Assembly: GCA_951406725.2 (NCBI GenBank)
Contig: OX597814.1
Location: forward strand, 195,176,001 to 195,240,000
DNA: 64,000 nt
Direction of reading: 5' to 3'
Source: Octopus vulgaris
Taxonomy: Eukaryota
Positions 8,263 to 64,000 of this stretch are shown one piece after another (position 1 is the first letter of the stretch; every line of letters begins with the position of its first letter). The position numbers and the translations under genes were made by a program. The notes under the pieces were generated by a model. It saw only the letters and a program-made list of their open reading frames with translations. It had not been told where the DNA came from and did no database searches.

Positions 8263-8334
8263 TGCCGTGACCAGGATTCGAACCTGGGTTACCACGGCCA
8301 CAACGTGGGGTCCTAACCACTAGACGATCACGGC
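8263..8334 (-). tRNA. trnH-GUG: tRNA-His(GTG), consensus
   Basis: 72-nt cloverleaf, anticodon loop TTGTGGC, A/B boxes, downstream T run; A at -1. Confidence 0.97.
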
Positions 8335-9231
8335 TACTAGGCCAACCGGCGATGACACTCTGAATTAACCCATATCTAGGAAGCGTAAACTACTGTCAGT
8401 TCAGCGTTTGTTTGTTCAGCTTCTGTTTGACAACTTCGTAAGTTTTCTCGTAATTGCTATGAAAATTGTTTGTTTTACTAAAGACAAAAGACAGAAATAT
8501 TTCACACATAACCTGCTCTCTCGAACAAAGAAAGGTCAATACAGGACAGGCAGATTTACTTTAATCATACCTAAGGACACAGACTGGGATAAATTCTCAC
8601 GAATATTTTTTTTCTGTCTCACGATCATCTAGTTTTTTTCTTTTAAGGTGAAGTGTGTCAAGGACTACATTTATTTTAGATACAAACGTCTCCTTGAAAA
8701 ATTTTAGACAATACGGTTTAGTTTAAAGAAGATTGCGCTACTATTTCTAGCAGTACACGCATCCACGTGGGAACTCACATCTGCTCGGCAATAAGGAGAA
8801 TATTATAATTAGCCAATTACTTCTATCGTTATTTATCAGCTAGTTTCAAAGCTTTTAGAAAAATTTTAAATGTTGTTTCTAACTTTACATTGAAGTCATA
8901 AATATTTTATGTTAACATTAAAGCGATTTTATAGCGAAATATATAGCTGTTTACGTCTTTTAATTTCGTTTAATAATGAAGTGTGATGGACATTTCGAAA
9001 GCAATACTATTATCGCTATATCAATATCATTATACGAATCAAAATATATTTTTATTTTGATACAATTACCAAGTGTTTATTTATAAAGGGTCAAGTATTT
9101 ATTATATACATAACAAACAATAAATTATAGAAGCAAAAAATAAAAATAAAAAAGCTGTTAAAGGGAAATAACTCGTAATTAACTATTTACCTATTATTTC
9201 CCCTGAAAATATAAAACTTAATTTTCCTACT

Positions 9232-9614
9232 TTACTCTCCTTTACTCTTCTACTTGTTTCAGTCATTTTGACTGCGGCTATGCTGGAGCATCACATTTAG
9301 TCGGGCAAATCGACCCCAGGACTTATTCTTGGGAAGCCTAGTACTTATTCTATCGTTTTTTTGCCGAACCGCTAAGTTACGGGTACGTAAACACACCAGC
9401 ATCGGTTGTCAAGCGATGTTGGGGGACAAACACAGACACACAAACACACACATACACATATATATACATATACATATATACGATGGGCTTCTTTCAGTTT
9501 CCGTCTACCAAATTTACTCACAAGGCTTTGGTCGACCCGAGGCTATAGTAGAAGACGCTTGCCCAAGGAGCCATGCAGTGGGACTGAACCCGGAACCATG
9601 TGGTTGGTAAGCAA
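9232..9614 (-). mobile_element. tRNA-derived SINE family 3, body (head displaced to 10882-10953)
   Basis: tacttgtttcagtcattttgactgcggc...ccgctaagttacgg...gcagtgggactgaacccggaaccatgtggttggtaagcaa. Related pieces at 12713-13190, ~15200 and ~19045. Confidence 0.8.
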
Positions 9615-9779
9615 AAGCAGAGTCATGATCACTACTAGAAAAACTTTGAAGTCTAAAATTATATATAAAAGTAATACAAACAACTTGAACAGGGTGTCGC
9701 TGTGATATCACATTGCAGTAAAATAAGAAAATCAATAAATAAGTGGAAAAAATATATGAAAAAAAAAGTGAAACTAAGC

Positions 9780-9851
9780 TGCCTTGACCAGGATTCGAAC
9801 CCGGGTTACCACGGCCACAACGTGCGGTCCTAACCACTAGACGATCACGGC
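9780..9851 (-). tRNA. trnH-GUG: tRNA-His(GTG) variant, 3 substitutions, possibly pseudogene
   Basis: Anticodon stem GCACG (mismatch), T stem CCGGG (wobble), acceptor TCAAGGC (mismatch). Confidence 0.7.
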
Positions 9852-9993
9852 TAACAGATCCGCTACTACGTTAGTCTTTAAATTATCTATGTCTAGAACA
9901 AACAAACTAATTAACTTTTGTCAGGTTAGTTAATTGTCTTTGTTTCTTTTAGATATACGTAATATAAAACTTGTTTTACAAGCAGGCGTGTTA

Positions 9994-10065
9994 GCCGTGA
10001 TCGTCTAGTGGTTAGGACCCCACGTTGTGGCCGTGGTAACCCAGGTTCGAATCCTGGTCACGGCA
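9994..10065 (+). tRNA. trnH-GUG: tRNA-His(GTG), consensus
   Basis: Exact consensus; T run terminator from 10075. Confidence 0.97.
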
Positions 10066-14113: not shown

Positions 14114-14185
14114 TGCCGTGACCAGGATTCGAACCTGGGTTACCACGGCCACAACGTGGGGTCCTAACCACTAGACGATCACGGC
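14114..14185 (-). tRNA. trnH-GUG: tRNA-His(GTG), consensus
   Basis: Exact consensus, long T terminator. Confidence 0.97.
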
Positions 14186-14321
14186 TAACACGCCAGTTAG
14201 TAAATCAGGTTTTATATTACATATATCTAAAAGAAACAAGACAATTAACTAACCTAACAAAAGTTAATTAATGTTTATTCTAGATATACATAATTTAAAG
14301 CCTAACGTAGCGGATCTGTTA

Positions 14322-14393
14322 GCCGTGATCGTCTAGTGGTTAGGACCCCACGTTGTGGCCGTGGTAACCCAGGTTCGAATCCTGGTCACGGCA
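14322..14393 (+). tRNA. trnH-GUG: tRNA-His(GTG), consensus
   Basis: Exact consensus, T run at 14406. Confidence 0.97.
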
Positions 14394-16399: not shown

Positions 16400-16471
16400 T
16401 GCCGTGACCAGGATTCGAACCTGGGTTACCACGGCCACAACGTGGGGTCCTAACCACTAGACGATCACGGC
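16400..16471 (-). tRNA. trnH-GUG: tRNA-His(GTG), consensus
   Basis: Exact consensus. Confidence 0.97.
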
Positions 16472-16610
16472 TAACACGCCTGCTTGTGAAGCAGGTTTTA
16501 TATTACGTATATCTAAAAGAAACAAGACAATTAACTAACCTAACAAAAGTTAATTAATGTTTATTCTAGATATACATAATTTAAAGCCTAACGCAGCAGC
16601 GGATCTGTTA

Positions 16611-16682
16611 GCCGTGATCGTCTAGTGGTTAGGACCCCACGTTGTGGCCGTGGTAACCCAGGTTCGAATCCTGGTCACGGCA
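16611..16682 (+). tRNA. trnH-GUG: tRNA-His(GTG), consensus
   Basis: Exact consensus. Confidence 0.97.
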
Positions 16683-17193: not shown

Positions 17194-18891
<1,698 letters not shown>

Positions 18892-20218: not shown

Positions 20219-20290
20219 TGCCGTGACCAGGATTCGAACCTGGGTTACCACGGCCACAACGTGGGGTCCTAACCACTAGACGATCACGGC
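20219..20290 (-). tRNA. trnH-GUG: tRNA-His(GTG), consensus
   Basis: Exact consensus. Confidence 0.97.
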
Positions 20291-20433
20291 TAACACGCCT
20301 GCTTGTGAAGCAGGTTTTATATTACGTATATCTAAAAGAAACAAGACAATTAACTAACCTAGTAAAAGTTAATTAGTTTGTTTGTTCTAGACATACATAA
20401 TTTAAAGACTAACGTAGCAGCGGAGATCTGTTA

Positions 20434-20505
20434 GCCGCGATCGTCTAGTGGTTAGGACCCCACGTTGTGGCTGTGGTAACCCAGGTTCGAATCCTGGTCA
20501 CGGCA
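20434..20505 (+). tRNA. trnH-GUG: tRNA-His(GTG) variant (2 substitutions)
   Basis: GCCGCGA acceptor mismatch; TGTGG anticodon-stem wobble. Confidence 0.8.
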
Positions 20506-21587: not shown

Positions 21588-21660
<73 letters not shown>

Positions 21661-28991: not shown

Positions 28992-29063
28992 TCCATTACC
29001 GTCCAGTGGTCAGGACCCCACGTTGTGGCTGTGGTAATCCAGGTTCGAATCCTGGTCACGGTA
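28992..29063 (+). pseudogene. tRNA-His pseudogene
   Basis: 5' acceptor strand degenerate (tccattacc); rest recognisable. Confidence 0.85.
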
Positions 29064-42652: not shown

Positions 42653-43656
42653 GAATGGCTAATTTAATTTTCATACACATTTTTCTCTTTTTACTGATTT
42701 TCTTAATATACTGCAATGTAATATCACAGCGACCTCTGTTTAAGTTATTTGTTATATTTTTAGGTTATAATTTTAGATTTCAATGTTTTTCTGAGAGCAA
42801 GCACGTCTCTAATTTCGCACTGTGGGCCGGAATATTGCTTTGTTGATAAATTACTTTGCTTTTGTTTTCTCCAGGAAATCGTTTCTTCTCACAGGGAAGT
42901 AATCCTATCTCTAAGAATTTTAAGTATTCCAATGCAGTAATTGACTGTTCACGCCCAGTAAACAAACTAAGGGCTGCAAAGGAAAATGCATCCCATACTA
43001 GGATTCCACCTAGTCTACGGTTCTGTGGAGGTAACGTTCTGTGGTACTATTACAAGGCTCAAATCTTGATTCGTCCACTCCAGAGGACTTTCTGAAACCA
43101 GTCTGAGCCATCGTTATCACACTTGTCCAAAAAATGCAACTGGTGCTTAATATTTCTCTAGGTGAACAAGTTCCGCCGAGGTCGACTTTGCCTTTCATGT
43201 TTTTGTGGTGGAAAAAAAATAAGTACCAGTTGATCACTGGGGTCGATGTAACTGACTTAGTCCTTCTTCGAACCTGCTGCCCTTGTGCCAAAATTCGAAA
43301 CCAATATTTTTCTTGGTGAACTGGCAGAATCGTTAGCTCGCCGGGCAAAGTGCTTAGCAACATTTCGCTGAGGACTATTTTAATTTTCATCCTTTTGGGC
43401 TGAATAATATAAGTACCAGTTGAGCACTGGAGTTGATATAATCGACTTACTCCCTCCCGGAAAAATGTCAGGCCTTGTGCCAAAGTAGAAAGGATTAACC
43501 TATTACATATTACAAAGCTGTTCACAGCTTCGTTGAAAAAATTATTTTGTGTTTTGTCCGCGAAATTGATTTGTTCACCCTGGGAAAGAATCGTGTTCTA
43601 CCGCCAGTATTCTAGATAGAGATATTTGGATAGCTAATCGAGCAGCTGGTCTGTCA

Positions 43657-43728
43657 GCCGTGATCGTCTAGTGGTTAGGACCCCACGTTGTGGCCGTGGT
43701 AACCCAGGTTCGAATCCTGGTCACGGCA
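43657..43728 (+). tRNA. trnH-GUG: tRNA-His(GTG), consensus
   Basis: Exact consensus; A-1. Confidence 0.97.
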
Positions 43729-45690: not shown

Positions 45691-45762
45691 GCCGTGATCG
45701 TCTAGTGGTTAGGACCCCACGTTGTGGTCGTGGTAACCCAGGTTCGAATCCTGGTCACGGCA
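45691..45762 (+). tRNA. trnH-GUG: tRNA-His(GTG) variant, G-1
   Basis: Anticodon loop TTGTGGT. Confidence 0.92.
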
Positions 45763-47702
45763 GACCGGTTAATTTAATTTTCATACACATTTTTCTCTTT
45801 TTACTGATTTTCTTAATATACTGCAATGTAATATCACAGCGACCTCTGTTTAAGTTATTTGTTATATTTTTAGGTTATAATTTTAGATTTCAATGTTTTT
45901 CTGAGAGCAAGCACGTCTCTAATTTCGCACTGTGGGCCGGAATATTGCTGTTTTGATAAATTACTTTGCTTTTGTTTTCTCCAGGAAATGGTTTCTTCAC
46001 GCTGGGAATTATACGTATCTCTAACAATGTTCGGTATTCCAATGCAGTAATTGACTGATCACGTCCTATAAACAAACTTAGGACTGCAGAGGAAAATGCA
46101 TCCAATAGTGGGGTTCCACCTGGTTTACGATTCGTAGCTGTTGAAATCCACTCACAGAGAGGTATCACTTATCGGTTCTGTAAAAGCAACGTTCTGTGGT
46201 ACCATTACAAGGCTCAAATCTTGATTCGTCCTCTCCAGAGTACTTTCTGAAACCAGTCTGAGTCATCGTTACCCTCCTTGGCCAAAAAAGTGCAACCGGT
46301 GCTTAATATTTTTCTAGGTGAACAAATTCCGCCGAGGTCGACTTTGCCTTTCATGTTTTTGTAGTGGAAAATAATAAGTACCAGTTGATCACTGGGGTCG
46401 ATGTAACTGACTTAACCCCTTCCTCAAACCTGCTGCCCTTATGCCAAAATTTGAAACCAATGTTTTACTCGGTGAATTTGCAGAATCGTTAGCACGCGGA
46501 TCAAAGTGCTTCGCAACATTTCGCCCTTCTTCCCATTTTACGTTGAAATTTTGCTGAGGATTATTTTAATTTTCATCCTTTTAGGCTGAATAATATAAGT
46601 ACCAGTTGAGCACTGGAGTTGATAAAATCGACTTACTCCCTCCCAGAAAAATTTCAGGTCTTGAGCCTTTCAGAGAAAGGATTATTTTATTATGTATTAC
46701 AAATCCATAAAAAAACACCCACAAGAACATACACAAATAAATCTATTGTTTAATATGGAATAATATATCCATTTCCTCTCTTAAAAAAACCCCATTCCTT
46801 TGAACAAACTATCGGATTATTATTTTCTTGCACCAAGAAATATCGCTGTTGTCCCATTCGCGTTTCACAGTTTTGAGATCGTAAATTTTCTTGTAAGAAG
46901 ATCATGCCGGGATTAAAAACTAAGCTCTGACAAGTCCACAATACGATATTAAAGGAATTTTCAAAGATCTACTTTTCAGTTGTTTCTGCAGTGTGGAGAA
47001 GTGTTGCTGTGTTGAAAAATTACTTTGATTTTAGCTAATTAGAAAATCCCTATAAAAGATGAAAGCAATAACTATACTGGGGAGCATTGATTAATGCCAC
47101 TTTAACATGGCTGTTCCGAAGGAAGCGACGTTATCGTTAATTGAAGCCGATGGGAACTCCTCCTGCAGCTGGTTATTCGATGCAATCTCCATCCGATATA
47201 TACTGCAAGCAAGGGAGTGAACCCCTACCATGATAAAACCACGAGATCACCAGACGGCACGGTTACGTCCTTTATGCGGTTATACTCTGTGATGGACATA
47301 GTTCCTTCCCTGAAGTTGCTGGCATTGTACCACCATTTGAACTCAATATTTATATCAGCATTACGTTTCCATCAATTACAACGCCATTCACTTTTCATAG
47401 TTTCCCAAAACTCGTCAGAGATGTCAAATTTCTTGTAACAAGATCGTACCCAATGCATGCGAAAATATTCTCTACGTGATTCAAACGTGAGCACTGATTT
47501 GTCCAGAAAACGATATTCACTGAGTTTTTCCCGAATTATTTTCAGGATGTTTTTACAGTGTGAGCAGGAGAACAGCTTCGCTGAAAAAAATTTTGTGTTT
47601 TGTCGGCGAAATTGATTTGTTCACTGTGGGAAATAATCATATTCTACTGCCAGTATTCTAGATAGAGATAATTGGAAAGCCGAGCCAGCAGCTGGTCTCT
47701 CG

Positions 47703-47774
47703 GCCGTGATCGTCTAGAGGTTTGGACCCCACGTTGTGGCCGTGGTAACCCAGGTTCGAATCCTGGTCACGGCA
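47703..47774 (+). tRNA. trnH-GUG: tRNA-His(GTG) variant, G-1
   Basis: D loop TAGAGGTTTGG (2 changes in the A-box region). Confidence 0.8.
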
Positions 47775-49618
47775 GTATCAGCTAGTTTACTTTTTCATAC
47801 ATATTTTTCTCTTTTTATTGATTTTCTTAATAGAGTACGATGTGATATGGCAGCGACATCTGTTTAATCTATTTGTATTACTTTTTTATATATAATTTTA
47901 GATTTGGAAGTTTCACTAGTCTCGAGCATCACTCTGCTTTTGCATTGTGGGACGGAATATTTCTTTGTTGATAAATTACCTTGTTTTCGTTTCCTATAGA
48001 AAATGGTTTCTTCACGCTGGGAATTAAACGTATCTCTAACAATGTTAGGTATTCCAATGCAGTAATTGACTGTTCACGCCCTTTAAACAAACTAACAGCT
48101 GCAGAGGAACATGCATCCCATACTAGGATTACACCACGTCTATAATTCATAGCTGTTGAAATCCACTCAGTGAGGGATCCCTTATCAGTTCTGTGAAAGC
48201 AACGTTCTGTGGTACTATTACAAATGTTCGAATTCTGATTCATCCATTCCAAAGGACTTTCGGAAACCAGTCTGATCATCGTTGCCACTCTTGTTAAAAA
48301 AAATGCAACTGGTGCTTAATATTTTTCTAGGGTAACAAGTTCCGACAAGGTCGACTTTGCCTTTCATGTTTTTGTGGTGGAAAATAATAAGTACCAGTTG
48401 ATGCCTGGGGTCGATGTAACTGACTTAGCCCCTTCTTCGAACCTGCTGCCCTTGCGCCAAAATTTGAAACCAATATTTTACTTGGTGAATTAGCAGAATC
48501 GTTAGCACGCGGAGCAAAGTGCTTCGCAACATTTCGCACTTTTTTCCATTTCGAGTACAAATTTCGAGGATTATTTTACTTTTTATTCTTTTGGGGTCAA
48601 TAAAATAAGTAGCATTTGAGCACTGGAGATGATATAATCGACTTACTCCCTCCCAGAAAAATTTCAGGCCTTGTGCCAAAGTAGAAAGGATTAACTTATT
48701 GCTTATCACAAATCCATAAAAACCGCCAACAAGAACATGCAGAAATAAATCTATAGTTTAATACGGAATAGCACATCCGTTTACTTTCTTGAAACTATCG
48801 GATTATTATTTTCTTGCATCAAGAAATATCGCTGTTGTCCCATTCGCGTTCCAGAGATTCTCAATATTTATTAGAGACAGTAAATTTTCTTGTGAGAAGA
48901 TCATGCCCAGAGCATGTCTTAGTATTGTACACAATACGATATGTCCACAATACGATATTCAAGGAATTTTCAAAGATCTACTTTTCAGTTGCTTCTGCAG
49001 TGTGGTCAAGTGTTGCTTTGTTGAAAAATTACTTTGATTTTAGCTAATTAGAAAATCCCTATAAAAGATGAAAGCAGTAACTATACTAGGAAGCAATGCT
49101 TTATGCCACTTTAACATGGCTGTTCCGTAGAAAGCGACTTTACCGTTATTTGAAGCCGATGGGAATTTATCCTGCAGCTGGTTATTCGATGTAATCTGCA
49201 TCCGATATATACTGCAAGCAGGGGAGTGAACCCGTACTATGATATAGCCACGAGATCACCAGACGGCACGGTTACGACCTATATGTTGTCATACTCTGTG
49301 ATGGACTTAGTTCCTTCTTTGAAGTTGTTGGCATTGTGCCAACATTTGAAAACAATATCGTATCGAATGCATACGAAAATATTATCTACGTGATTCATAC
49401 TTGAGCACTGACTTGTCCAGAAAACGATATTCACTGAGTTTTTCACGAACTATTTACAAGATGTATTTACAGTGTGAGCAGGAGAACAGCTTCGTTGAAA
49501 AAATTATTTTGTGTTTTGTCCACGAAATTGATTTGTCCACCCTGGGAAATAATCGTGTTCTACCGCCAGTATTCTAGATAGAGATAATTGGATAGCTAAT
49601 CGAGCAGCTGGTCTCTCA

Positions 49619-49690
49619 GCCGTGATCGTCTAGTGGTTAGGACACCACGTTGTGGCCGTGGTAACCCAGGTTCAAATCCTGGTCACGGCA
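49619..49690 (+). tRNA. trnH-GUG: tRNA-His(GTG) variant
   Basis: GGACACCACG and TTCAAAT; stems intact. Confidence 0.9.
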
Positions 49691-51641
49691 GTATCAGCTA
49701 CTTTACTTTTTATGTATATTTTTCTGTTAACAGAGTACGATGTGATATGGCATCTGTTTAAGTGATTTGTATTACTATTAAATATAATTTTAGATTTAGG
49801 AGCTTTACTAGTCGTGAGTTACTTTTGCATTGTGGGACGGAATATTTCTTTGTTGATAAATTACTTTGTTTTTGTTTCCTGTAGAAAATGGTTTCTTCAC
49901 GCTGGGAATTAAACGTATCTCTAACAATGTTAGGTATTCCAATGCAGTAATTGACTGTTCACACCCTTTAAACAAACAAATAACGGGTGCAGAGGAAAAT
50001 GCATCCCATATTGGGATTCCACCTTGTCTATAATTCATAGGTATTGAAATCCACTCAGTGAGGGATCCCTTATCAGTTCTGTGAAAGCAACGTTCTGTGG
50101 TACCATTACAAAAGTTCGAATTCTGATTCATCCATTCCAAAGGACTTTCGGAAACAAGTCTGAATCATCGTTACCACTCTTGTTCAAAAAAGTGCAACCG
50201 TTGCTTAATATTTTTCTAGGGTAACAAGTTCCGACGAGGTCGACTTTGCCTTTTATGTTTTTGTGGTGGAAAATAATAAGTACCAGTTGATCCCTGGGGT
50301 CGATGTAACTGACTTATCCCCTTCCCCAAACCTGCTGCCCTTGGGCCAAAATTTGAAACCAATATTTTACTTGGTGAATTAGCAGAATCGTTAGCACGTG
50401 GAGCAAAGTGCTTCGCAACATTTCGCTCTTCTTTCCATTTCGAGTTCAAATTTCGCGGAGGATTATTTTACTTTTTATTCTTTTGGGGTCAATAAAATAA
50501 GTAGTATTTGAGCACTGGAGATGATATAATCGACTTACTCACTCCCAGAAAAATTTCAGGCCTTGTGCCAAAAGTAGAAAGATTAATTTATTGCTTATTA
50601 CAAATCCATAAAAAACACCCACAAGAACATGCAGAAATAAATCTATAGTTTAATACGGAATAGCACATCCGTTTCCTTTCTTGAAAAAAAAAAAAATTCC
50701 TTTGAACAAACTATCGGATTATTATTTTCTTGCATCAAGAAATATCGCTGTTGTCCCATTCGGGTTTCAGAGTTTCCCAATATTTATTAGACAGTAAATT
50801 TTCTTGTGAGAAGAACATGCCCAGAGCATGTCATAATATTCTATACGGGATTAAAACTGAGCTCTGACAAGTCTGAGCTCTGACGATATTCAAGGAATTT
50901 TCAAAGATCTACTTTTCAGTTGCCTCTGCAGCGTGGAGAAGTGTTGCTGTGTTGAAAAATTACTATGATTTTAGTTATTAGAAAATCTCTATAAAAGATG
51001 AAATCAGTAACTGTACTGGGGAACAATGCTTTATGCCACTTTAACATGGCTGTTTCATAGAAAGCGATGTAAACGTTATTTGAAGCCGATGAGAACTCCT
51101 TCTGCAGCTGGTTATTCGATGCAATCTGCATCCGATATATATTGCAAGCAAGGGAGTGAACCCCTACCATGATAAAACCATGAGATCACCAGACGGCACG
51201 GTTACGTTATATGCGGTCATACTCTGTGATGGACTTAGTTCCTTCTTTGAAGTTGCTGGCATTGTGCCAACATTTGAACCCAATATTTATGTTTACATTA
51301 CGTTTCCATCAATTACAATGCCATTCGCTTTTCATAGTTTCCCAAATTGCATCAGAGATGTCAAGTTTCTTGTAACAAGATCGTACCCAATGCATGCGAA
51401 AATATTCTCTATGTGATTCATACTTGAGCACTGACTTGTCCAGAAAACGATATTCACTGAGTTTTTCACGAACTATTTACAAGATGTATTTACAGTGTGA
51501 GCAGGAGAACAGCTTCGTTGAAAAAATTATTTTGTGTTTTGTCCACGAAATTGATTTGTCCACCCTGGGAAATAATCGTGTTCTACCGCCAGTATTCTAG
51601 ATAGAGATAATTGGATAGCTAATCGAGCAGCTGGTCTCTCA

Positions 51642-51713
51642 GCCGTGATCGTCTAGTGGTTAGGATCCCACGTTGTGGCCGTGGTAACCCAGGTTCAAAT
51701 CCTGGTCACGGCA
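51642..51713 (+). tRNA. trnH-GUG: tRNA-His(GTG) variant
   Basis: GGATCCCACG (D-stem wobble) and TTCAAAT. Confidence 0.88.
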
Positions 51714-53674
51714 GTATCAGCTACTTTACTTTTTATGTATATTTTTCTCTTAACAGAGTACGATGTGATATGGCATCTGTTTAAGTGATTTGTATTACTG
51801 TTAAATATAATTTTAGATTTAGGAGCTTTACTAGTCGTGAGTTACTTTTGCATTGTGGGACGGAATATTTCTTTGTTGATAAATTACTTTGTTTTTGTTT
51901 CCTGTAGAAAATGGTTTCTTCAAGCTGGGAATTAAACGTATCTCTAACAATGTTAGGTATTCCAATGCAGTAATTGACTGTTCACACCCTTTAAACAAAC
52001 AAATAACGGGTGCAGAGGAAAATGCATCCCATATTGGGATTCCACCTTGTCTATAATTCATAGGTATTGAAATCCACTCAGTGAGGGATCCCTTATCAGT
52101 TCTGTGAAAGCAACGTTCTGTGGTACCATTAACAGGCTCAAATCTTGATTCGTCCTCTCCAGAGTACTTTCTGAAACCAGTCTGAGTCATCGTTACCCTC
52201 CTTGGCCAAAAAAGTGCAACCGGTGCTTAATATTTTTCTAGGGTAACAAGTTCCGACAAGGTCGACTTTGCCTTTTATGTTTTTGTGGTGGAAAATAATA
52301 AGTACCAGTTGATCCCTTGGGGTCGATGTAACTGACTTATCCCCTTCCCCAAACCTGCTGCCCTTGGGCCAAAATTTGAAACCAATATTTTACTTGGTGA
52401 ATTAGCAGAATCGTTAGAACGTGGAGCAAAGTGCTTCGCAACATTTCGCCCTTCTTTCCATTTCGAGTTCAAATTTCGCGGAGGATTATTTTACTTTTTA
52501 TTCTTTTGGGGTCAATAAATTAAGTAGCATTTGAACACTGGGAATGATATAATCGACTTACTTCCTCTCAGAAAAATTTCAGGCCTTGTGCCAAAGTAGA
52601 AAGGATTAGCTTATTGCTTATTACAAATCCATAAAAACCGCCCACAAGAACATGCAGAAATAAATCTATATTCTAACAAGGAATAACACAAACGTTTCCT
52701 TTCTTGAAAAGAAAAAAAAACCCCATTCCTTTGAGCAAACTATCGGATTATTATTTTCTTGCATCAAGATATATCGCTGTAGTCCCATTCGCGTTTCAGA
52801 GTTTCCCAATATTTATTAGAGACAGTAAATTTTCTTGTGAGAAGATTATGCCCAGAGCTTGTCTTAGTATTGTACACGGGATTAAAAACTGAGCTCTGAC
52901 AAGTCTGAGCTCTGACGATATTCAAGGAATTTTCAAAGAACTACTTTTTAGTTGCTTCTGTAGTGTGGACAAGTGTTGCTGTGTTGAAAATTACTTTGAT
53001 TTTAGCTAATTAGAAAATCTCTATAAAAGATGAAAGCAGTAACTATACTGGGAAGCAATGATTAATGCCACTTTAACATGGCTGTTCCGTAGAAAGCGAC
53101 GTTACCGTTATTTGAAGACGATGAGAACTCCTCCCGCAGCTGGTTATTCGATGCAATCTGCATCCGATATATATTGCAAGCAAGGGAGTGAACCCTACCA
53201 TGATAAAACCATGAGATCACCAGACGGCACGGTTACGTCCTATATGCGGTCATACTCTCTGATGGACTTTGTTCCTTCCCTGAAGTTGCTGGCATTGTGC
53301 CAACATTTGAACACAATATTTATATCTGCATTACGTTTCCATCAATTACAACGCCATTCACTTTTCATAGTTTCCCAAAACTCGTCAGAGATGTCAAATT
53401 TCTTGTAAGAAGATCGTAGCAAATGCATGCGAAAATATTCTCTACGTGATTCAAACGTGAGCACTGACTTGTCCAGAAAACGATATTCACTGAGTTTTTT
53501 ACGAATTATTTTCAGGATGTTTTTACAGTGTGAGCTGGAGAACAGCTTCGTTGAAAAAGTTATTTTGTGTTTTGTCAGAGAAATTGATCTAATCACTCTG
53601 GGAAATAATCATATTCTACTGCCAGTATTCTAGATAGAGATAATTGGAAAGCCGAGCCAGCAGCTGGTCTCTCG

Positions 53675-53746
53675 ACCGTGATCGTCTAGTTGTTAGGACC
53701 TCACGTTGTGGCCGTGGTAACCCAGGTTCGAATCCTGGTCACGGCA
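53675..53746 (+). tRNA. trnH-GUG: tRNA-His(GTG) variant, likely defective
   Basis: G1>A, D-loop GG>TG, anticodon-stem C>T. Confidence 0.6.
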
Positions 53747-54448
53747 GTATCAGCTACTATACTTTTCATGCAAATTTTTTTGTTTTGATTTTCTTTTTCA
53801 TTGTGGGGCGGAATATTGCTTTGTTGATAAATTACCTTGTTTTTGTTTCCTATAGAAAATTGTTTCTTCACGCTGAGAATTAAGCGTATCTCTAGCAATG
53901 TTAGGTATTCCAATGCAGTAATTGACTGTTCACATACAAACTAACAACTGAAAAGGAAAATTTATTCCATACTGGGATTCCACCTTGTCTATAATTCATA
54001 GCTGTTGAAATCCACTCAGTGAGTGTCCCCGAACCTTCTGCGTTTGTGTCAAAATTTGAAGCCAATATTTTACTTGGTGAACTGGGAAAATCGTTCGCAT
54101 CCCGTGCAAAATTTTTGTATTACATTTTTTATATATAATTTTATAATTCAAAGTTTCCAGGAAGAGATGGCAAGTTTCTTGTAACAAGATCGTAGCAAAT
54201 GCATGCGAAAATATTCTATACGTGATTCATACTTGAGCACTGACTTGTCCAGAACACGATATTCACTGAGTTTTTCACGAAGATTTTCAGGATGTATTTA
54301 CAGTGTGAGCAGTAGAAAAGCTTCGCTGAAAAAATATTTTGTGTTTTGTCCGCGAAATCGATTTGTTCACTCTAGGAAATAATCGTATTCTACGGCCAGT
54401 AATCTAGATAGAGATAATTGGGAAGCAGTTCCAGCAGCTGATCTCTCG

Positions 54449-54520
54449 GCCGTGATCGTCTAGTGGTTAGGACCCCACGTTGTGGCCGTGGTAACCCAGG
54501 TTCGAATCCTGGTCACGGCA
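54449..54520 (+). tRNA. trnH-GUG: tRNA-His(GTG), consensus, G-1
   Basis: Exact consensus. Confidence 0.97.
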
Positions 54521-54849
54521 GTATCAGCTAGTTTACTTTTTCATACATATTTTTCTCTTTGTATTGATTTTCTTAATAGAGTACGATGTGATATGGCAGC
54601 GACATCTGTTTAATCTATATGTATTACTTTTTTTTAATATATAATTTTAGATTTGGAAGTTTCACTAGTCTCGAGCATCACTCTGCTTTTGCATTGTGGG
54701 ACGGAATATTTCTTTGTTGATAAATTACCTTGTTTTCGTTTCCTGTAGAAAATTGTTTCTTCACACTGGGAATTAAACGTATCTGTAACAATGTTAGGTA
54801 TTCCAATGCAGTAATTGACTCTTCACGCCCTGTAAACTAACTAACGGCT

Positions 54850-56070
54850 TATAAAAATAGGATCACATGCGGTCGTATCGTGTAAGAGACACGGTAGCAC
54901 GTGGCCATATTCTTAATGAGATATTACAGACCATATAATACATACAGCGGTAATAGAACACAAGTGGAATGACAACAAGATTTCTTTTTGAATTATATAC
55001 ATTATTTATTTTACATACTTTACAATCATGCTGATGTTGGGAGTTTGTAAGTGTTAGCATGTTTTTGTGTCCGTGTGTTCGAGAGGCATAAAAAGTACTG
55101 ACCAGAGAAATAACAATGGAATTTGGTTCACAGTTCATGTTGTTGGTATCAGCCTAGCAACAGGTAGTAGCAGATGGCTTAAGGTAGTTCTTAGAAGAAC
55201 TAGAACTCAAGACAGATAATTGATTTACCGTTTATGAGGTACACGGAGTGTAAGAGTTCCATATCAAGATGTTGCGTCTCGTAGTTGAGATTAATTGAAT
55301 CACTTGTTGCGTTTATCTTTCTCTTGATATGAATATACTTCCAGATGTGTTAACTGTAGCCGTTTTTCCCGTGGTGAGATTTTCACCTAACCGCTATAGT
55401 TGAATCTGTAGTTGTCTTGTGTACAAATTAAACCTTAGTAGATAGAGACGATGTTTGGCGATGAGTTGTGTCTGTCGCTTGGTTTTTGCTGCGTCTTCAT
55501 TATATATTCTGCTTGGTTATTTTTCTCTAGTTATAGATATCCTGTAACCGTTCTTTTCGTGGTGATATTTTCACACTAACAGTATGAGAGGAATCTGTAA
55601 CATCTTGTATACAAGCTAAATCTTCGTGGATAGTTATGCTTGGTGATTGCCTGCCTTTCGAACCGGAACATAGTTGGTATGCTCTGTGTGGTCAGAGGTC
55701 CGCTCTGAAAAGGACTGTAACCTAAGACGAGCTCTGTGGTCAGAGGTTAGTCCTGAGAAGGACTAGAACCAAAGACGGATATTTGTCTGAGAACACTTCT
55801 TTATATAAGGTTTATGTGGCTCAAAACGAACTTCAGAAATGGAAAGCTGTGATTGGCTGCTTGGAACAAATGGCGCGAAAATAAGCGGAGGCAAATCGCG
55901 TCACGTGACAACCAGCGGTGCGAACGTAGTAGAGACCACGTGTCAGCCAATCGGATTAGTGTTTACAACAATGTTAAACTAGCCGAAGATGTTTGTAATC
56001 TCGAACGAGATTATTCTTAATACTCTTCTCAAACAGTGAAGATAGCAATGAGGGAAACGATATTGTTACA
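54850..56070 (-). repeat. 3' LTR (1221 bp)
   Basis: Minus strand begins TGTAACAATATCG and ends ...TTTTATA. Confidence 0.8.
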
Positions 56071-56240
56071 TATAGCCTCTTGCCAGACGTTTTGTCGTAG
56101 ACAAAACGACGATAAAATTGATATTATATATTTTTTTTTGTTTTTCTTAAAAAGTTCCTTCTTCAGCGTTCTCTTGTGTCAATTCCGTAACTTATGTTTA
56201 CCGTTGGCCGCGCAATATATCAGAATGGCTGCGTATTAAA

Positions 56241-56250
56241 GGGGTCACCA
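56241..56250 (-). promoter_or_regulatory. Primer binding site, tRNA-Trp-like
   Basis: TGGTGACCCC one base after the 5' LTR; complementary to the ...GGGGUCACCA 3' end of metazoan tRNA-Trp. Confidence 0.7.
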
Positions 56251-56251
56251 G

Positions 56252-57030
56252 TATAAGAATAGAATCACATGCGGTCGTATCGTGTAAGAGACACGGTCGC
56301 ACGTGGCCATATTCTTAATGAAATATTACAGACCATATAATACATACAGCGGCAATAGAACACAAGCGGAATGACAACAAGATTTCTTTTTGAGATATAT
56401 ACATTATTTATTTTACATATTTTACAATCATGCTGATGTTGGGAGTTTGTGAGTGTTAGCATATTTTTGTGTCTGTGTGTTCGTGAGGCATAAAAGGTAC
56501 TGAACATAGAATTAACAATGGCATTTAGTTTACTGTTCATTGGGCAAGGTGCTGGAATCTACTCGAGAGGCTTTCAGTGGTTGTATAGATTAGCGTAGCA
56601 ACAGGTAGTAGCAGAGACAATCGCATATCTCTAAGTTGAGCAGCAGGTGGCCTAAGTTAGTTCTTAGAAGAACTGGAACTCAAGACATAAGTGTCTGTGA
56701 ACCCTGCTTTATATACTGTTTGGTTGGCTCACCGAACTCCAGAAAATGGAATTTTAACCGAAAGTCTTGATTGGCTGATTCGCAATTATGGCGCGAAATA
56801 AGTCGAGACAATTCGCGTCACGTGTCAACCAGTGGCGCGGACTACGTAGGGACCCTCGTGTCACATGTCAACCAGTGGTGCGAACGTAGTAGAGACCACG
56901 TGTCAGCCAATCGGATTAGAGTTTACAACAATGTTAAACTAGCCGAAGATGTTTGTAATCTCGAACGAGATTATTCTTAATACTCTTCTCAAACAGTGAA
57001 GATAGCAATGAGGGAAACGATATTGCTACA
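56252..57030 (-). repeat. 5' LTR (779 bp)
   Basis: Minus strand begins TGTAGCAATATCG and ends ...TTCTTATA. Confidence 0.8.
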
Positions 57031-58344
57031 GGCTGAAAAGGAAAATGCATCCCATACTGGGATTCCGCCTCGTCTATAATTCATAGCTGTTGAAATCCAC
57101 TCAGTGAGGGATCTCTTATCAGTTCTGTGAAAGCAACGTTCTGTGATACCATTACAAAAGTTCGAATTCTTCCACCCAAGGGGATATTCTGAAACCAGAC
57201 TGAATCATCGTTACCACACTTATCCAAAAAAGTGGAACCAGTGCTTAATATTTTTCTAGGGGAACAAGTTCCGACGAGGTCGACTTTGCCTTTTATGTTT
57301 TTGTGGTGGAAAAAAATAACTATCAGTCGATCACTGGAGTCGACGTAATCGAGTTGGTCCCTTCACCGATCCTTCTGCGTTTGTGTCAAAATTTGAAACC
57401 AATACATTTCTTGGTGAACTGGCAAAATCGTTAGCATGCCGGGAAAAATTTTTGTATTACATTTATAAATAATTTTACATTTCAAAGGTTTCTTGATGTT
57501 TGTCTTTGCGATCTGGCAGAATGGTTAGCACGCCGAGCAAAAGATATTTAGCGTTATTTCGTCAGTCTTTCACGCACGGAGTTCAAATTCCGCTATTTTC
57601 GGGGTAGATAAAATATGTAGCAGTTGAACAGTGGGGTCAATGTAAACGACATACTTCCTTCCCCGTGGGGTACTCCATCCCAGAAAAAAATTCAGGCCTT
57701 GTGGCAGCGATATCTGTTTAAGTTATTTGTATTACTTTTATATATAATTTTAAATTTCAACGTTCTTCTACTCGCGAGCATCACTCTGCTTTTGCGTGCG
57801 CCTGGTATTAGAATTAGAGGGACGTCATCCCAAAGGAACAATCATGTTTTGGTGTCTATAAACGTTACTTTGATTTTCTTGTTTCCAGGAAGCTGCGTTT
57901 TGACGCCCGGAAGTAATTTTATTCCAACCGGTGCTTAATATCAATCTTGGGAGCTAGAAGAATCGTTAGTCGGCATCATTTCGTCTGTCTTGCCATTTTG
58001 AGTTCAAATTTGGCCGAGCATTATTTTACTTTTCATCCTTTTGGGGTCAATAAAATAATTACCAGTTGCGCAATGGCATTGATATAATCGACGTACTCAA
58101 TCTCAGAAAAAATTTCAGGCCTTGTGCCTAACATAGAAGGGATTATCCTATTAAATATTACAAATCCACGAAAACCCTCCCAAGGACAATCAGAAATAAA
58201 CCCATAGATTAATATGGATTAACATATTACTTTGATTTATTTTTGTCCAGGAAACTGCTTTTTCAACGCTCGGAAGCAATATTATGCTATCACCAATATT
58301 CTTGATATGCATAACTTAAAATATGTGCTGCCGGTGGTCTGGTT

Positions 58345-58411
58345 ACCGTGATCTTCTTGTGGTTAGAGCGCTGCGTTCTGGCTGTGACAACCCAGGTTCG
58401 AACTCACAGCA
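58345..58411 (+). pseudogene. tRNA-His-derived pseudogene (loop reads CTG)
   Basis: accgtgatcttcttgtggttagagcgctgcgttctggctgtgacaacccaggttcgaactcacagca; 3' T-stem strand deleted. Confidence 0.8.
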
Positions 58412-59138
58412 GGAAGGTTAATTATTGTTCTTCGTATATTTTTGTTTCGTATTTTATAGATGTTCTTGATATACTGCAATGCGATATCGCATCTATATCT
58501 CTTTATGTTGTCTGTACCACTTTTATATATAATCTTATATTTCAAATTTTTCTGAGTGTTTGTCCATGCGAACTGGCAGAATTGGTCGCAATCCCAGCAA
58601 AATACTTAGCGGCATTTCGTAGGCCTTTCCCGTACTGCGTTCAAATTCTGCCGAGGTCGACTTTCTTTTTTTCTTACTTTGGGTGAGGATAAAATAAGTA
58701 CCAGTTAAGCAGTTGGGATCAATGCAATCGACTTACGTCTTTCCCTGAAATTGCTGGCATTGTGCCAACATTTGAACACAATATTTATATCTACATTATG
58801 TTTCCATCAATTACAACGCCATTCACTTTTCATAGTTTCCCAAAATTTATCAGAGATGGCAAGTTTCTTGTAACAAGATCGTACCCAATGCATGCGAAAA
58901 TATTCTCTATGTGATTCATACTTGAGCTCTGATTTGTCCACAACACGATATTCACTGAGTTTTTCACGAACATTTTCAAGGTGTTTTTACAGTGTGAGCA
59001 AGAGAACAGCTTCGTCGAAAAAATTATTTTGTGTTTTGTCAGAGAAATTGATTTAATCACTCTGGGAAATAATCGTATTATACCGCCAGTAATCTAGATA
59101 GAGATAATTGGAAAGCCGAGTGTGCAGCTGGTCTTTCG

Positions 59139-59210
59139 GCCGTGATCGTCTAGTGGTTAGGACCCCACGTTGTGGCCGTGGTAACCCAGGTTCGAATCCT
59201 GATCACGGCA
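59139..59210 (+). tRNA. trnH-GUG: tRNA-His(GTG) variant, G-1
   Basis: T stem CCTGA mismatch. Confidence 0.85.
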
Positions 59211-60142
59211 GTATCAGCTACTATACTTTTCATGCAAATGTTTTTGTTTTGATTTTCTTTTGCATTGTGGGACGGAATATTTCTTTGTTGATAAATTACC
59301 TTGTTTTTGTTTCCTATAGAAAATTGTTTCTTCACGCTGAGAATTAAGCGTATCTCTAGCAATGTTAGGTATTCTGATGCAGTAATTGACTGTTCACAAA
59401 CAAACTAACGACTGAAGAGGAAAATGCATCCATACTGGGATTCCACTTCGTCTATAATTCATAGCTGTTGAAATCCACTCAGTGAGGGATCTCTTATCAG
59501 TTCTGTGTCACCATTACAAAAGTTCGAATTCATCCACTGAAGAGGACTTTCGAAAAACAGACTGAATCATCGTTACCACTCTTGTCCAAAAAAGTGCAAC
59601 CGGTGCTGAATATTTTTCTAGGGTAACAAGTTCCGCCGAGGTCGACTTTGCCTTTTATGTTTTTGTGGTGGAAAAAATAAGTATCAGTCGATCACTGGAG
59701 TCGATGTGATAGAGTTAGAACCTTACCCGAACCTTCTGCGTTTGTGTCAAAATTTGAAGCCAATATTTTTTTGGGTGAACTGGAAAAATCGTTAGCATCC
59801 CGTGCAAAATTTTTGTATTACATTTATATATAATTTTATTTTTCAAAGTTTCCAGGAAGAGATGGCAAGTTTCTTGTAACAAGATCGTAGCAAATGCATG
59901 CGAAAATATTCTATACGTGATTCATACTTAAGCACTGACTTTTCCAGAACACGATATTCACTGAGTTTTTCCACGAAGATTTTGAGGATGCTTTTACAGT
60001 GTGAGCAGGAGAACAGCTTCGTTGAAAAAATTATGTGTTTTGACCGCGAAATTGATTTGTTCACCCTGGGAAATAATCGTACCCTACCGCCAGTATTCTA
60101 GATAGAGATAATTAGAAACCTAATCGAGCAGCTGGTCTCTCG

Positions 60143-60214
60143 GCCGTGATCGTCTAGTGGTTAGGACCCCACGTTGTGGCCGTGGTAACCCAGGTTCGAA
60201 TCCTGGTCACGGCA
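60143..60214 (+). tRNA. trnH-GUG: tRNA-His(GTG), consensus, G-1
   Basis: Exact consensus. Confidence 0.97.
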
Positions 60215-61854
60215 GTATCAGCTAGTTTCCTTTTTTTTCATACATATTTTTCTCTTTGTATTGATTTTCTTGATAGAGTACGATGTGATATAACAGCGAC
60301 ATCTGTTTAATCTATTTGTATTACTTTTTATATATAATTTTAGATTTGGAAGTTTCACTAGTCTCAAGCATGGCCCTGCTTTTGTTTTGTGGGACGGAAT
60401 ATTTCTTTGTTGATAAATTACCTTGTTTTCGTTTCCTGTAGAAAATTGTTTCTCTACACACTGGGAAGTAATCGTATCTCTAACAATGTTAGGTATTCCA
60501 ATGCAGTAATTGACTGTTCACGCCCTTTAAACAAACTAACGGCTGAAAAAGAAAATGCATCCCATACTGGGATTCCACCTCGTCTATAATTCATAGCTGT
60601 TGAAATCCACTCAGTGAGGGATCTCTTATCAGTTCTACGAAAGCAACGTTCTGTGGTACCATTACAAACGTTCGAATTTTGATTCATCCATTCTAAAGGA
60701 CTTTCTGAAATCAGTCTGAATAATCGTTACCACACTTGTCCAAAAAAGTGCAACCGGTGCTTAATATTTTTCCAGGTGAACAAGTTCCGCCGAGGTCGAC
60801 TTTGCCTTTTATGTTTTTGTGGTGGTAAAAAATAAGTATCAGTCGATCAGTGGAGTCGATGTAATCGAGTTGGACCCTTCCCCGAACCCTCTGCGTTTGT
60901 GTCAAAATTTGAAACCGATATTTTTCTTGAACTGGCAAAACCGTTAGCACCCCGGGTAAAATTTTTGTATTACATTTATATATAATTTTATATTTCAAAG
61001 TTTTCTTCATGATTGTCTTTGCGATCTGACAAAATGGTTAGCACCGCGAGCAGAATGTTTAGCGTCATCTCGTCAGTCTTTCATGCACGGAGTTCAAATT
61101 TCGCTATTTTCGGGGTAGATAAAATAAGTATCAGTTGAACAGTGGGGTCAATGTAAACGACATACTTCCTTCCCCGTGGGGTACTCCATCCCAGAAAAAA
61201 TTCAAGCCTTGTGGCAGCGATTTCTGTTGAAGTTATTTGTATTACTTTTATATATAATTTTAGATTTCAACGTTCTTCTGCTCGCGGTCGTCACTTTGCT
61301 TTTGCGTGCGCCTGGTATTAGAATTAGAGGGACGTCATCCCAAAGGAACAGTCATGTTTTGGTGTCTATAAACGTTACTTTGATTTTCTTGTTTCCAGGA
61401 AGCTGCGTTTTGACGCCTGGAAGTAATTTTATTCCAACCGGTGCTTAATATCAATCTTGGGAGCTAGAAGAATCGTTAGTCGGCAGCATTTCGTCTGTCT
61501 TGCCATTTTGAGTTCAAATTTGGCCGAGCATTATTTTACTTTTCATCCTTTTGGGGTCAATAAAATAATTACCAGTTGCGCAATGGCATTGATATAATCG
61601 ACGTACTCAATCTCAGAAAAAATTTCAGGCCTTGTGCCTAACATAGAAAGGATTATCCTATTAAATATTACAAATCCACGAAAACCCTCCCAAGGACAAT
61701 CAGAAATAAACCCATAGATTAATATGGATTAACATATTACTTTGATTTATTTTTGTCCAGGAAACTGCTTTTTCAACGCTCGGAAGCAATATTATGCTAT
61801 CACCAATATTCTTGATATGCATAACTTAAAATATGTGCTGCCGGTGGTCTGGTT

Positions 61855-61921
61855 ACCGTGATCGTCTTGTGGTTAGAGCGCTGCGTTCTGGCTGTGACAA
61901 CCCAGGTTCGAACTCAGAGCA
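61855..61921 (+). pseudogene. tRNA-His-derived pseudogene (loop reads CTG)
   Basis: Duplicate of 58345-58411. Confidence 0.8.
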
Positions 61922-62646
61922 GGAAGGTTAATTATTGTTCTTCGTATATTTTTGTTTTGTATTTTATAGATGTTCTTGATATACTGCAATGCGATATCGC
62001 ATCTATATCTCTTTATGTTGTCTGTACCACTTTTATATATTATCTTATATTTCAAATTTTTCTGAGTGTTTGTCCATGCGAACTGGCAGAATTGGTCGCA
62101 ATCCCAGCAAAATACTTAGCGGCATTTCGTAGGCCTTTCCCGTACTGCGTTCAAATTCTGCCGAGGTCGACTTTTTTTTTCTTACTTTGGGTGAGGATAA
62201 AATAAGTACCAGTTAAGCAGTTGGGATCAATGCAATCGACTTACGTCTTTCCCTGAAATTGCTGGCATTGTGCCAACATTTGAACACAATATTTATATCT
62301 ACATTATGTTTCCATCAATTACAACGCCATTCACTTTTCATAGTTTCCCAAAATTTATCAGAGATGGCAAGTTTCTTGTAACAAGATCGTAGCAAATGCA
62401 TGCGAAAATATTCTCTACGTGATTCATACTTGAGCTCTGATTTGTCCACAACACGATATTCACTGAGTTTTTCACGAACATTTTCAAGGTGTTTTTACAG
62501 TGTGAGCAAGAGAACAGCTTCGTCGAAAAAATTATTTTGTGTTTTGTCAGAGAAATTGATTTAATCACTCTGGGAAATAATCGTATTATACCGCCAGTAA
62601 TCTAGATAGAGAAAATTGGAAAGCCGAGTCTGCAGCTGGTCTTTCG

Positions 62647-62718
62647 GCCGTGATCGTCTAGTGGTTAGGACCCCACGTTGTGGCCGTGGTAACCCAGGTT
62701 CGAATCCTGATCACGGCA
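62647..62718 (+). tRNA. trnH-GUG: tRNA-His(GTG) variant, G-1
   Basis: T stem CCTGA mismatch, as at 59139. Confidence 0.85.
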
Positions 62719-63650
62719 GTATCAGCTACTATACTTTTCATGCAAATGTTTTTATTTTGATTTTCTTTTGCATTGTGGGACGGAATATTTCTTTGTTGAT
62801 AAATTACCTTGTTTTTGTTTCCTATAGAAAATTGTTTCTTCACGCTGAGAATTAAGGGTATCTCTAGCAATGTTAGGTATTCTGATGCAGTAATTGACTG
62901 TTCACAAACAAACTAACGACTGAAGAGGAAAATGCATCCATACTGGGATTCCACTTCGTCTATAATTCATAGCTGTTGAAATCCACTCAGTGAGGGATCT
63001 CTTATCAGTTCTGTGTCACCATTACAAAAGTTCGAATTCATCCACTGAAGAGGACTTTCGAAAAACAGACTGAATCATCGTTACCACTCTTGTCCAAAAA
63101 AGTGCAACCGGTGCTGAATATTTTTCTAGGGTAACAAGTTCCGCCGAGGTCGACTTTGCCTTTTATGTTTTTGTGGTGGAAAAAATAAGTATCAGTCGAT
63201 CACTGGAGTCGATGTGATAGAGTTAGAACCTTACCCGAACCTTCTGCGTTTGTGTCAAAATTTGAAGCCAATATTTTTTTGGGTGAACTGGAAAAATCGT
63301 TAGCATCCCGTGCAAAATTTTTGTATTACATTTATATATAATTTTATTTTTCAAAGTTTCTAGGAAGAGATGGCAAGTTTCTTGTAACAAGATCGTAGCA
63401 AATGCATGCGAAAATATTCTATACGTGATTCATACTTAAGCACTGACTTTTCCAGAACACGATATTCACTGAGTTTTTCCACGAAGATTTTGAGGATGCT
63501 TTTACAGTGTGAGCAGGAGAACAGCTTCGTTGAAAAAATTATGTGTTTTGACTGCGAAATTGATTTGTTCACCCTGGGAAATAATCGTACCCTACCGCCA
63601 GTGTTCTAGATAGAGATAATTAGAAACCTGATCGAGCAGCTGGTCTCTCG

Positions 63651-63722
63651 GCCGTGATCGTCTAGTGGTTAGGACCCCACGTTGTGGCCGTGGTAACCCA
63701 GGTTCGAATCCTGGTCACGGCA
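63651..63722 (+). tRNA. trnH-GUG: tRNA-His(GTG), consensus, G-1
   Basis: Exact consensus. Confidence 0.97.
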
Positions 63723-64000
63723 GTATCAGCTAGTTTCCTTTTTTTTCATACATATTTTTCTCTTTGTATTGATTTTCTTGATAGAGTACGATGTGATATA
63801 ACAGCGACATCTGTTTAATCTATTTGTATTACTTTTTATATATAATTTTAGATTTGGAAGTTTCACTAGTCTCAAGCATGGCCCTGCTTTTGTTTTGTGG
63901 GACGGAATATTTCTTTGTTGATAAAGTACCTTGTTTTCGTTTCCTGTAGAAAATTGTTTCTCTACACACTGGGAAGTAATCGTATCTCTAACAATGTTAG

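What the first reader, a model, noticed from the sequence alone, without database searches (positions are those of the whole stretch)
8263..64000. Large single-isoacceptor tRNA-His(GTG) cluster with two architectures
Seen: 31 tRNA-His loci and four fragments in 56 kb, with no other tRNA species. 13 copies are identical while flanks diverge strongly between groups. The layout is one lone copy, four divergent pairs, then a unidirectional ~2 kb array that continues past the window. Established: His(GTG) is the usual sole His isoacceptor in metazoans, and tandem tDNA arrays evolve by unequal exchange and birth-and-death. Inference: gene bodies are under purifying selection or conversion. The amplification might serve His-rich products (C2H2 zinc fingers, hemocyanin, structural proteins) if this is a cephalopod, or might be neutral satellite-like expansion.
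Basis: partly seen in the sequence, partly recalled or inferred. Interest (0 to 1): 0.7.

Follow-up and report, generated by a model that had tools for sequence, protein, structure and literature searches.

The report
Histidine tRNA cluster with clamped precursors
This is a real but ordinary 90-kb cluster of histidine-tRNA genes, likely kept by selection while copies are born and die; the surprise is that the sequences just before and after histidine-tRNA genes, unlike the other tRNA genes tested, are complementary and are predicted to zip the precursor RNA shut, which may control how it is trimmed.

Summary
Confirmed: 31 His(GTG) loci, 4 fragments, 13 identical. The cluster runs on to about 98 kb (64 units, 30 structurally intact). 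Pairs and array descend from one unit. Gene bodies change about 2.5-4 times less than their own flanks, so it is not a neutral satellite. Asp and Glu have their own clusters, so His demand is not needed. Four dispersed retrocopies carry cluster-type leaders and trailers, indirect evidence of past germline transcription, yet the cluster gave only 4 of 24 assigned retrocopies. Unexpected: in 16 His flank families the leader and trailer are complementary in one register (-6..-13 with +1..+8, 67% Watson-Crick, changing pair types, p=2e-5); 44 Asp, Glu and other genes show nothing. His genes in unnamed metagenome contigs also pair (62 families, p=5e-5), in other registers. Leader-trailer stems are known in yeast and human; a His-specific one was not found in my searches. 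The scan noted Ala arrays in this genome and a His leader-trailer pairing in another animal before. No direct RNA evidence.

The parts
7884..8098 (-). Two 3'-end fragments of the gene (7884-7907, 8075-8098) in a local 191-bp tandem duplication of the lone copy's downstream flank
8263..8334 (-). Lone tRNA-His(GTG), identical to the commonest sequence
9780..10065 (.). Head-to-head pair 1 (9780-9851 minus, damaged by two broken stem pairs; 9994-10065 plus, intact)
14114..14393 (.). Head-to-head pair 2, inverted relative to pair 1; the spacer also occurs in contigs of two other organism labels
16400..16682 (.). Head-to-head pair 3
20219..20505 (.). Head-to-head pair 4 (20434-20505 has one broken acceptor pair)
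28992..63722 (+). Unidirectional array, 22 full-length loci: 28992, 30234, 31079, 32827, 34851, 36701, 38701, 40727, 41908, 43657, 45691, 47703, 49619, 51642, 53675, 54449, 58345, 59139, 60143, 61855, 62647, 63651; continues to about window coordinate 98,000
32827..53746 (+). Young ~2 kb-period stretch; nine monomers differ 8-12% in downstream spacer and 3.9% in the gene body
30234..30306 (+). Degenerate His-derived pseudogene
58345..58416 (+). Degenerate His-derived pseudogene, CTG at the anticodon, broken stems; duplicated at 61855 (3.5-kb higher-order repeat)
31801..31822 (+). 3'-half fragment; duplicated at 42630
41863..41880 (+). Example of the conserved TATA-like upstream block (-45..-28), shared by all cluster units; promoter role inferred
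41881..41894 (+). Example of the mutation hotspot (-27..-14), 4.86 changes per site against 1.91 further out; read as transcription-associated mutagenesis (inferred)
41895..41907 (+). Example of the 13-nt leader; -13..-6 is complementary to the trailer, -4..-1 is predicted to bulge
41980..41987 (+). Example of the trailer strand (+1..+8) of the predicted leader-trailer helix; first T4 run at +16

Best explanation
The region is a histidine-tRNA gene cluster grown from one ancestral unit by duplication and inversion, whose intact copies are likely kept by purifying selection and likely transcribed by Pol III into precursors predicted to be closed by a histidine-specific leader-trailer helix. Shown: common ancestry of all units, conserved bodies, decayed subfamilies, leader-trailer complementarity in one register with changing pair types, its absence in the other isotypes tested, and retrocopies that end at -13 and at the T-run. 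Inferred: transcription starts near -13; leader -13..-6 pairs with trailer +1..+8, leaving -1..-4 bulged and the oligo-U tail free; RNase P, RNase Z, CCA addition and Thg1 then mature the tRNA. My committed guess for the helix (about 35%) is that it fixes the RNase P cut at +1, so that the purine always found at -1 is not kept in the position where Thg1 must add the G-1 identity base.
For: One profile of gene plus flanks finds all units; 64 full units, 39 with at most 3 differences, 30 structurally intact, 20 of them in the window. On a flank-only tree of the 38-member main clade, damaged copies included, bodies carry 0.62 terminal and 0.22 internal changes per site against 1.48 and 0.78 in near flanks (-100..-26, +11..+40; summed rows). 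Identical bodies sit in unrelated flanks on other contigs. Hotspot at -27..-14 (p=1e-8) and a drop on the helix strand -13..-5 (1.67 per site, p=6e-5). 4 retrocopies carry cluster leaders and trailers; 6 of 11 retrocopy leader matches of 8 nt or more end at -13. Helix: 7 unrelated loci, exact permutation 1 of 5040; 16 families 67% Watson-Crick at one register, p=2e-5 over 11 registers; Asp 14, Glu-CTC 9, Glu-TTC 6, mixed 15: p=0.16, 0.98, 0.18, 0.80. Purine at -1 in 16 of 16. 62 metagenome His families: cognate -8.3 against -6.4 kcal/mol within body type, p=5e-5; mock leader p=0.33.
Against: No cluster-specific precursor was seen in 4 RNA-type runs, all contigs. The cluster holds 30 of 44 intact genes but gave 4 of 24 assigned retrocopies, so many copies may be weak or silent, or younger than the retrocopies. 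34 of 64 units are damaged. Conversion among bodies was not separated from selection. The fixed register is not shared by the metagenome His genes (0.24 at that register, p=0.74), and their largest short-trailer group pairs weakly (-3.2 kcal/mol). Some identical cluster copies have a weak helix (31079, 66168). Control isotypes cover only Asp, Glu, Arg, Ala, Thr, Cys and Lys, and no non-His control exists for the metagenome set. The role at RNase P is untested.
Confidence: 0.72

Rival explanations
1. The array is mostly silent today: a few ancestral copies were active, the rest are recent passive duplicates, as in the silenced Arabidopsis clusters, and dispersed genes make most tRNA-His.
For: 4 of 24 assigned retrocopies come from the cluster against 9 from the C4/C20 type and 8 from C25; over half the units are damaged; body changes are enriched on terminal branches.
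Against: Terminal-branch body rate is still about 0.4 of flank rate; the upstream hotspot is present among the young 2-kb monomers (22.6% against about 10%).
Confidence: 0.2
2. Bodies are homogenised by gene conversion, not by selection on each copy.
For: The same variants recur in different flank clades (positions 46, 56, 64).
Against: Conservation stops sharply at the gene ends; whole subfamilies have escaped and decayed; bodies match copies on other contigs with unrelated flanks.
Confidence: 0.12
3. The leader-trailer complementarity is a by-product of hairpin-templated mutation at transcribed tRNA genes or of common descent, with no RNA function.
For: All His genes may share remote ancestry; the register differs between lineages.
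Against: Other isotypes lack it; pair types change at a fixed register while the 4-5 nt bulge stays; templated extension would be expected to abut the acceptor stem (inference).
Confidence: 0.15
4. His genes were amplified to serve His-rich proteins.
For: About 44 intact His genes were found.
Against: Asp and Glu are clustered and at least as numerous; earlier notes report Ala arrays (not checked here).
Confidence: 0.07
5. Neutral satellite-like expansion of a unit that happens to hold a tRNA gene.
For: 2-kb period, higher-order duplications, many dead copies.
Against: Body 3.9% against spacer 8-12% in the same nine monomers; internal-branch deficit.
Confidence: 0.05

Closest known systems
Homogeneous tDNA clusters of eukaryotes (PMC2888827; passages read)
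   Same: One isoacceptor, mostly parallel copies, some head-to-head pairs, pseudogenes mixed in.
   Different: Large (64 units); that survey says most clusters are small and defines them at under 1000 nt spacing, which much of this array exceeds.
Silent Arabidopsis tDNA clusters (PMC7544208; abstract and outline) and the human 1q23 tRNA VNTR (PMC4041453; search listing only)
   Same: Tandem extra copies beside dispersed genes.
   Different: Units here are about 10-30% diverged in flanks; cluster-type precursors were retrocopied; silencing and copy-number variation untested.
Transcription-associated mutagenesis at tRNA loci (PMC6130373; first of six parts read)
   Same: Conserved body with a hypervariable inner 5' flank.
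   Different: That paper treats leaders and trailers as neutral or weakly selected; here -13..-5 is protected and the peak lies at -27..-14.
Extended acceptor stems of yeast and human pre-tRNAs and of MALAT1 mascRNA (PMC8457004; first part and passages; Lee 1997 and Gogakos 2017 known only through its citations)
   Same: Leader-trailer pairing with a bulge just 5' of the RNase P site.
   Different: Confined to His among isotypes tested, G+C-rich, fixed register with changing pair types, 4-5 nt bulge; that paper says tRNA leaders and trailers lack conservation.
Chimeric retrocopies of Pol III RNAs such as U6-L1 (PMC4476161; search listing only)
   Same: Short RNA joined to a repeat-derived 3' tail at a new site.
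   Different: Here the RNA is the unprocessed pre-tRNA, so each copy carries its parent's barcode; tails were not assigned to named elements.

Membership tests
Functional eukaryotic tRNA-His(GTG) gene | Cloverleaf, GTG anticodon, A73, internal A and B boxes | tested here: met
   20 of 31 window loci and 30 of 64 cluster units pass my rule of no indel, no broken stem pair, no change at 11 conserved positions; 47703 passes but has A21T
Functional eukaryotic tRNA-His(GTG) gene | Oligo-T terminator downstream | tested here: met
   First T4 run at +6 to +30 in all 64 units
Functional eukaryotic tRNA-His(GTG) gene | G-1 not gene-encoded but added by Thg1 | tested here: inconclusive
   Position -1 is A in 11 and G in 5 of 16 families; mature 5' ends not seen
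Functional eukaryotic tRNA-His(GTG) gene | Transcribed by Pol III | tested here: inconclusive
   Indirect only: 4 retrocopies and the hotspot; no precursor
Birth-and-death homogeneous tDNA cluster | Single isotype, units of common descent | tested here: met
Birth-and-death homogeneous tDNA cluster | Bodies conserved over spacers, pseudogene lineages present | tested here: met
Neutral satellite or homogenised VNTR | Near-identical units with uniform divergence along the unit | tested here: not met
Silent tDNA cluster (Arabidopsis type) | Methylated and transcriptionally silent | not testable with these tools
   no methylation or raw RNA reads available
tRNA-derived SINE | Decayed tRNA head plus body and LINE tail, dispersed | tested here: not met
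   Cluster units have intact bodies and long shared flanks; only the dispersed retrocopies have tails
Pre-tRNA extended acceptor stem (yeast/human kind) | Leader-trailer complementarity with a bulge at -1 | tested here: met
   (predicted structure)
Pre-tRNA extended acceptor stem (yeast/human kind) | Occurs across isotypes | tested here: not met
   44 non-His genes, p=0.88; isotype spread in yeast and human is from my recall, source papers not held
Pre-tRNA extended acceptor stem (yeast/human kind) | Affects RNase P processing | not testable with these tools
   needs an assay

The most novel reading that the evidence does not exclude
Animal tRNA-His precursors carry a selected, isotype-specific terminal helix, kept by compensatory change across loci and lineages, that governs 5' end choice ahead of G-1 addition: a hidden structural element in flanks generally treated as neutral. 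In some lineages it is elaborated with a second acceptor-like strand in the trailer.
Probability: 0.4. Interest if true: 0.75.

Novelty: new variant of a known kind. Interest (0 to 1): 0.5.

Why it matters
The cluster alone is one more tandem tRNA family. A His-specific precursor helix would mean that tRNA flanks carry isotype-specific processing information, would add a step to the G-1 pathway, and can be tested at once with compensatory mutants. The retrocopy barcodes also offer a sequence-only record of which tRNA genes were transcribed in the germline and where their transcripts begin.

Tried and rejected
RNA evidence: four RNA-type runs laid on 53500-55200 gave only retrocopy-containing contigs, spacer repeats and mature-tRNA-like pieces from another organism label; contigs cannot show absence. 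Folding-rescue idea: the His body forms its acceptor stem alone (P=0.999), like nine other tRNA bodies, so intrinsic misfolding is not the reason for the helix. A universal register across animals: not found. Mobile-element origin of the unit: dispersed source genes share no long flank with it. Gln, Tyr and Leu calls beyond the window at relaxed ARAGORN threshold: those at 79764, 83065, 90413, 94212 and 96397 are His-derived decayed units; the two minus-strand Leu calls at 60654 and 64162 were not examined. Viral contigs held no match. The tree count for pairs stopped early and that for the decayed clade did not run. The +41..+160 flank is inflated by non-homologous sequence and was left out of the quoted ratio. 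Contig depths were not used as copy number. Lee 1997 and Gogakos 2017 were not held.
Full report
Observation. ARAGORN and Rfam each find 28 tRNA-His(GTG) genes and no other tRNA. The window is G000:C1:195176001-195240000 in a 2.8-Gb genome; earlier scan notes call it an octopus, which I did not test. In 100 kb on each side the family continues to about window coordinate 98,000, next to a 100-N gap, and is absent upstream.

Anatomy. A profile of gene plus flanks finds every unit: 64 full units, 19 identical, 39 with at most three differences, 25 degenerate. Lone copy, pairs and array share an upstream TATA-like block and a downstream block, so the two architectures are one family rearranged by inversion and tandem duplication. 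By a structural rule 30 of 64 are intact, 20 of them in the window. Decayed subfamilies have themselves been duplicated. The head-to-head spacer occurs in contigs of two other organism labels with 10-12 differences over 137-168 aligned bases, so the layout likely predates their split.

Selection. Among all 22 array loci in the window, bodies differ 8.3% and flank zones 18-30%. In nine 2-kb monomers the body differs 3.9%, the TATA-like block 4.8%, the downstream spacer 8-12% and the -27..-13 zone 22.6%. On a flank-only tree of 38 units, damaged ones included, bodies carry 0.62 terminal and 0.22 internal changes per site against 1.48 and 0.78 in 101 near-flank sites (summed). This is birth-and-death under purifying selection; conversion may contribute and was not excluded. 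The hotspot just upstream (4.86 against 1.91 changes per site in 33 units, p=1e-8) resembles the transcription-associated mutagenesis of PMC6130373 (part 1 read); the link is inferred.

Not special to His. Exact searches give 48 and 69 His matches, 28 and 31 of them in the cluster. A like pattern gives 112 matches, all 100 listed being Asp, with arrays on C5 and C10, and Glu-CTC and Glu-TTC clusters lie on C7 and C10 (its 229 matches include SINE-like hits). Single-isoacceptor clustering is this genome's habit.

Retrocopies. Of 41 His copies fetched outside the cluster (one further degenerate hit dropped), 27 have a short or no leader, a trailer ending at the T-run and then a repeat tail; 14 were treated as source genes, of which the C20 copy may itself be a retrocopy. 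Target-site duplications were not checked and the tails were not assigned to named elements. 24 of 27 could be assigned: 9 C4/C20 type, 8 C25, 4 cluster, 3 others. So cluster-type genes were likely transcribed in the germline, but they are under-represented for 30 of 44 intact genes (p=3e-7); lower activity and recent expansion both fit. Leader matches end at -13 in 6 of 11 cases, placing the likely start there.

The helix. In 18 His loci the own trailer pairs with the leader at -8.6 kcal/mol against -3.8 for swapped trailers; for 7 unrelated loci the true assignment is the best of 5040; mock leaders show nothing. With one rule for all isotypes (commonest body, no recognised tail, one per flank family), 16 His families give p=2e-5 while 14 Asp, 9 Glu-CTC and 6 Glu-TTC give 0.47, 0.21 and 0.39; 24 of 29 mixed tRNAs that could be scored give 0.73. 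Pairing sits in one register, leader -(5+k) with trailer +k: 67% Watson-Crick for k=1..7 against 16-29% in ten other registers, with C-G, A-T, G-C and T-A all used at -7:+2, and it ends after -13:+8. The leader strand changes a third as often as the hotspot beside it (p=6e-5). Position -1 is a purine and -2 a pyrimidine in 16 of 16.

Other animals. Their organisms are unnamed; the bodies differ from this one by a few bases. The fixed register is absent (p=0.74), but with trailers taken to the terminator the own trailer pairs better than swapped ones within body type (-8.3 against -6.4, p=5e-5; mock leader p=0.33), and 18 of 62 trailers hold a second acceptor-like 3' strand, against 0 of 16 here. 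No non-His control exists for this set. An earlier scan note (e1-7594471, seen after these tests) describes the pairing and the decoy strand in another animal and rated the pairing ordinary.

Mechanism. Likely: Pol III starts near -13, stops at the T-run, and the ends zip into a stem of up to 8 bp under a 4-5 nt 5' bulge, with the U tail free. RNase P, RNase Z, CCA addition and Thg1 follow (PMC6470698, PMC10275265; passages). A bulge 5' of the cut is needed when acceptor stems are extended (PMC8457004). Since His alone takes its identity from position -1, I guess that the helix fixes the cut at +1 (about 35%); ordering of 5' and 3' cuts or precursor stability are alternatives. Rescue from intrinsic misfolding was not supported.

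Literature. Homogeneous clusters, silent clusters, flank mutagenesis and extended acceptor stems are known. Searches listed no paper on a His-specific leader-trailer helix, and searches 14 and 52 none on cephalopod nuclear tRNA clusters; I saw listings and abstract starts only, and two key papers were not held, so prior description cannot be excluded.

Verdict. The cluster is real and ordinary (about 0.25 alone). The His-specific helix is statistically strong in this genome, echoed in other lineages, untested in function, and lifts the finding to 0.5.

Noticed in passing
window 21588-25940 (-), partial copy 17171-18733: Non-LTR retroelement with an RVT_1 frame of 1053 aa and a (TAA)n tail between the pairs and the array; a 5'-truncated 97.6% identical copy sits between pairs 3 and 4.
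   Followed up: partly
beyond the window, coordinates 70315, 73142, 83065, 90413, 94212, 96409: A decayed subfamily with a one-base insertion; bodies differ 20% while outer flanks differ 6-9%. Could be a still-transcribed pseudogene mutating without selection, or CpG decay. ARAGORN calls three of them Gln(TTG) at relaxed threshold.
   Followed up: partly
L063, L067, L074, L078, L080, L081, L085, L088 and others: Pre-tRNA retrocopies with the same repeat tails also exist for Ala, Lys, Arg and Thr, so many dispersed tRNA genes in this genome are probably retrocopies that inflate annotation counts.
   Followed up: partly
G000:C5:51226947-51304295: tRNA-Asp(GTC) tandem arrays with a 158-bp period in both orientations.
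   Followed up: no
G000:C7:54059576-54099740 and C10:81834016-81868025: Glu-CTC and Glu-TTC single-isoacceptor clusters.
   Followed up: partly
L065 (G000:C12:25267077-25270148): Dense tRNA-Cys cluster, seven calls in 3 kb, including ACA and ACT anticodon variants.
   Followed up: no
G000:C25:3.44-4.34 Mb (L034-L037): A second, looser His gene group of eight genes with its own flank family; source of 8 retrocopies.
   Followed up: partly
L175, L179, L183, L184, L198, L200, L201, L222, L229 and others: His trailers with a hairpin and a second acceptor-like 3' strand that could pair with the gene's 5' strand, 18 of 62 families.
   Followed up: partly
beyond the window, coordinates 84750-84900: A His unit split by a short insertion in the middle of the gene.
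   Followed up: no
beyond the window, coordinates 105893-111603 and 140665-144128: Two related long-ORF elements, probably retroelements, just past the assembly gap.
   Followed up: no
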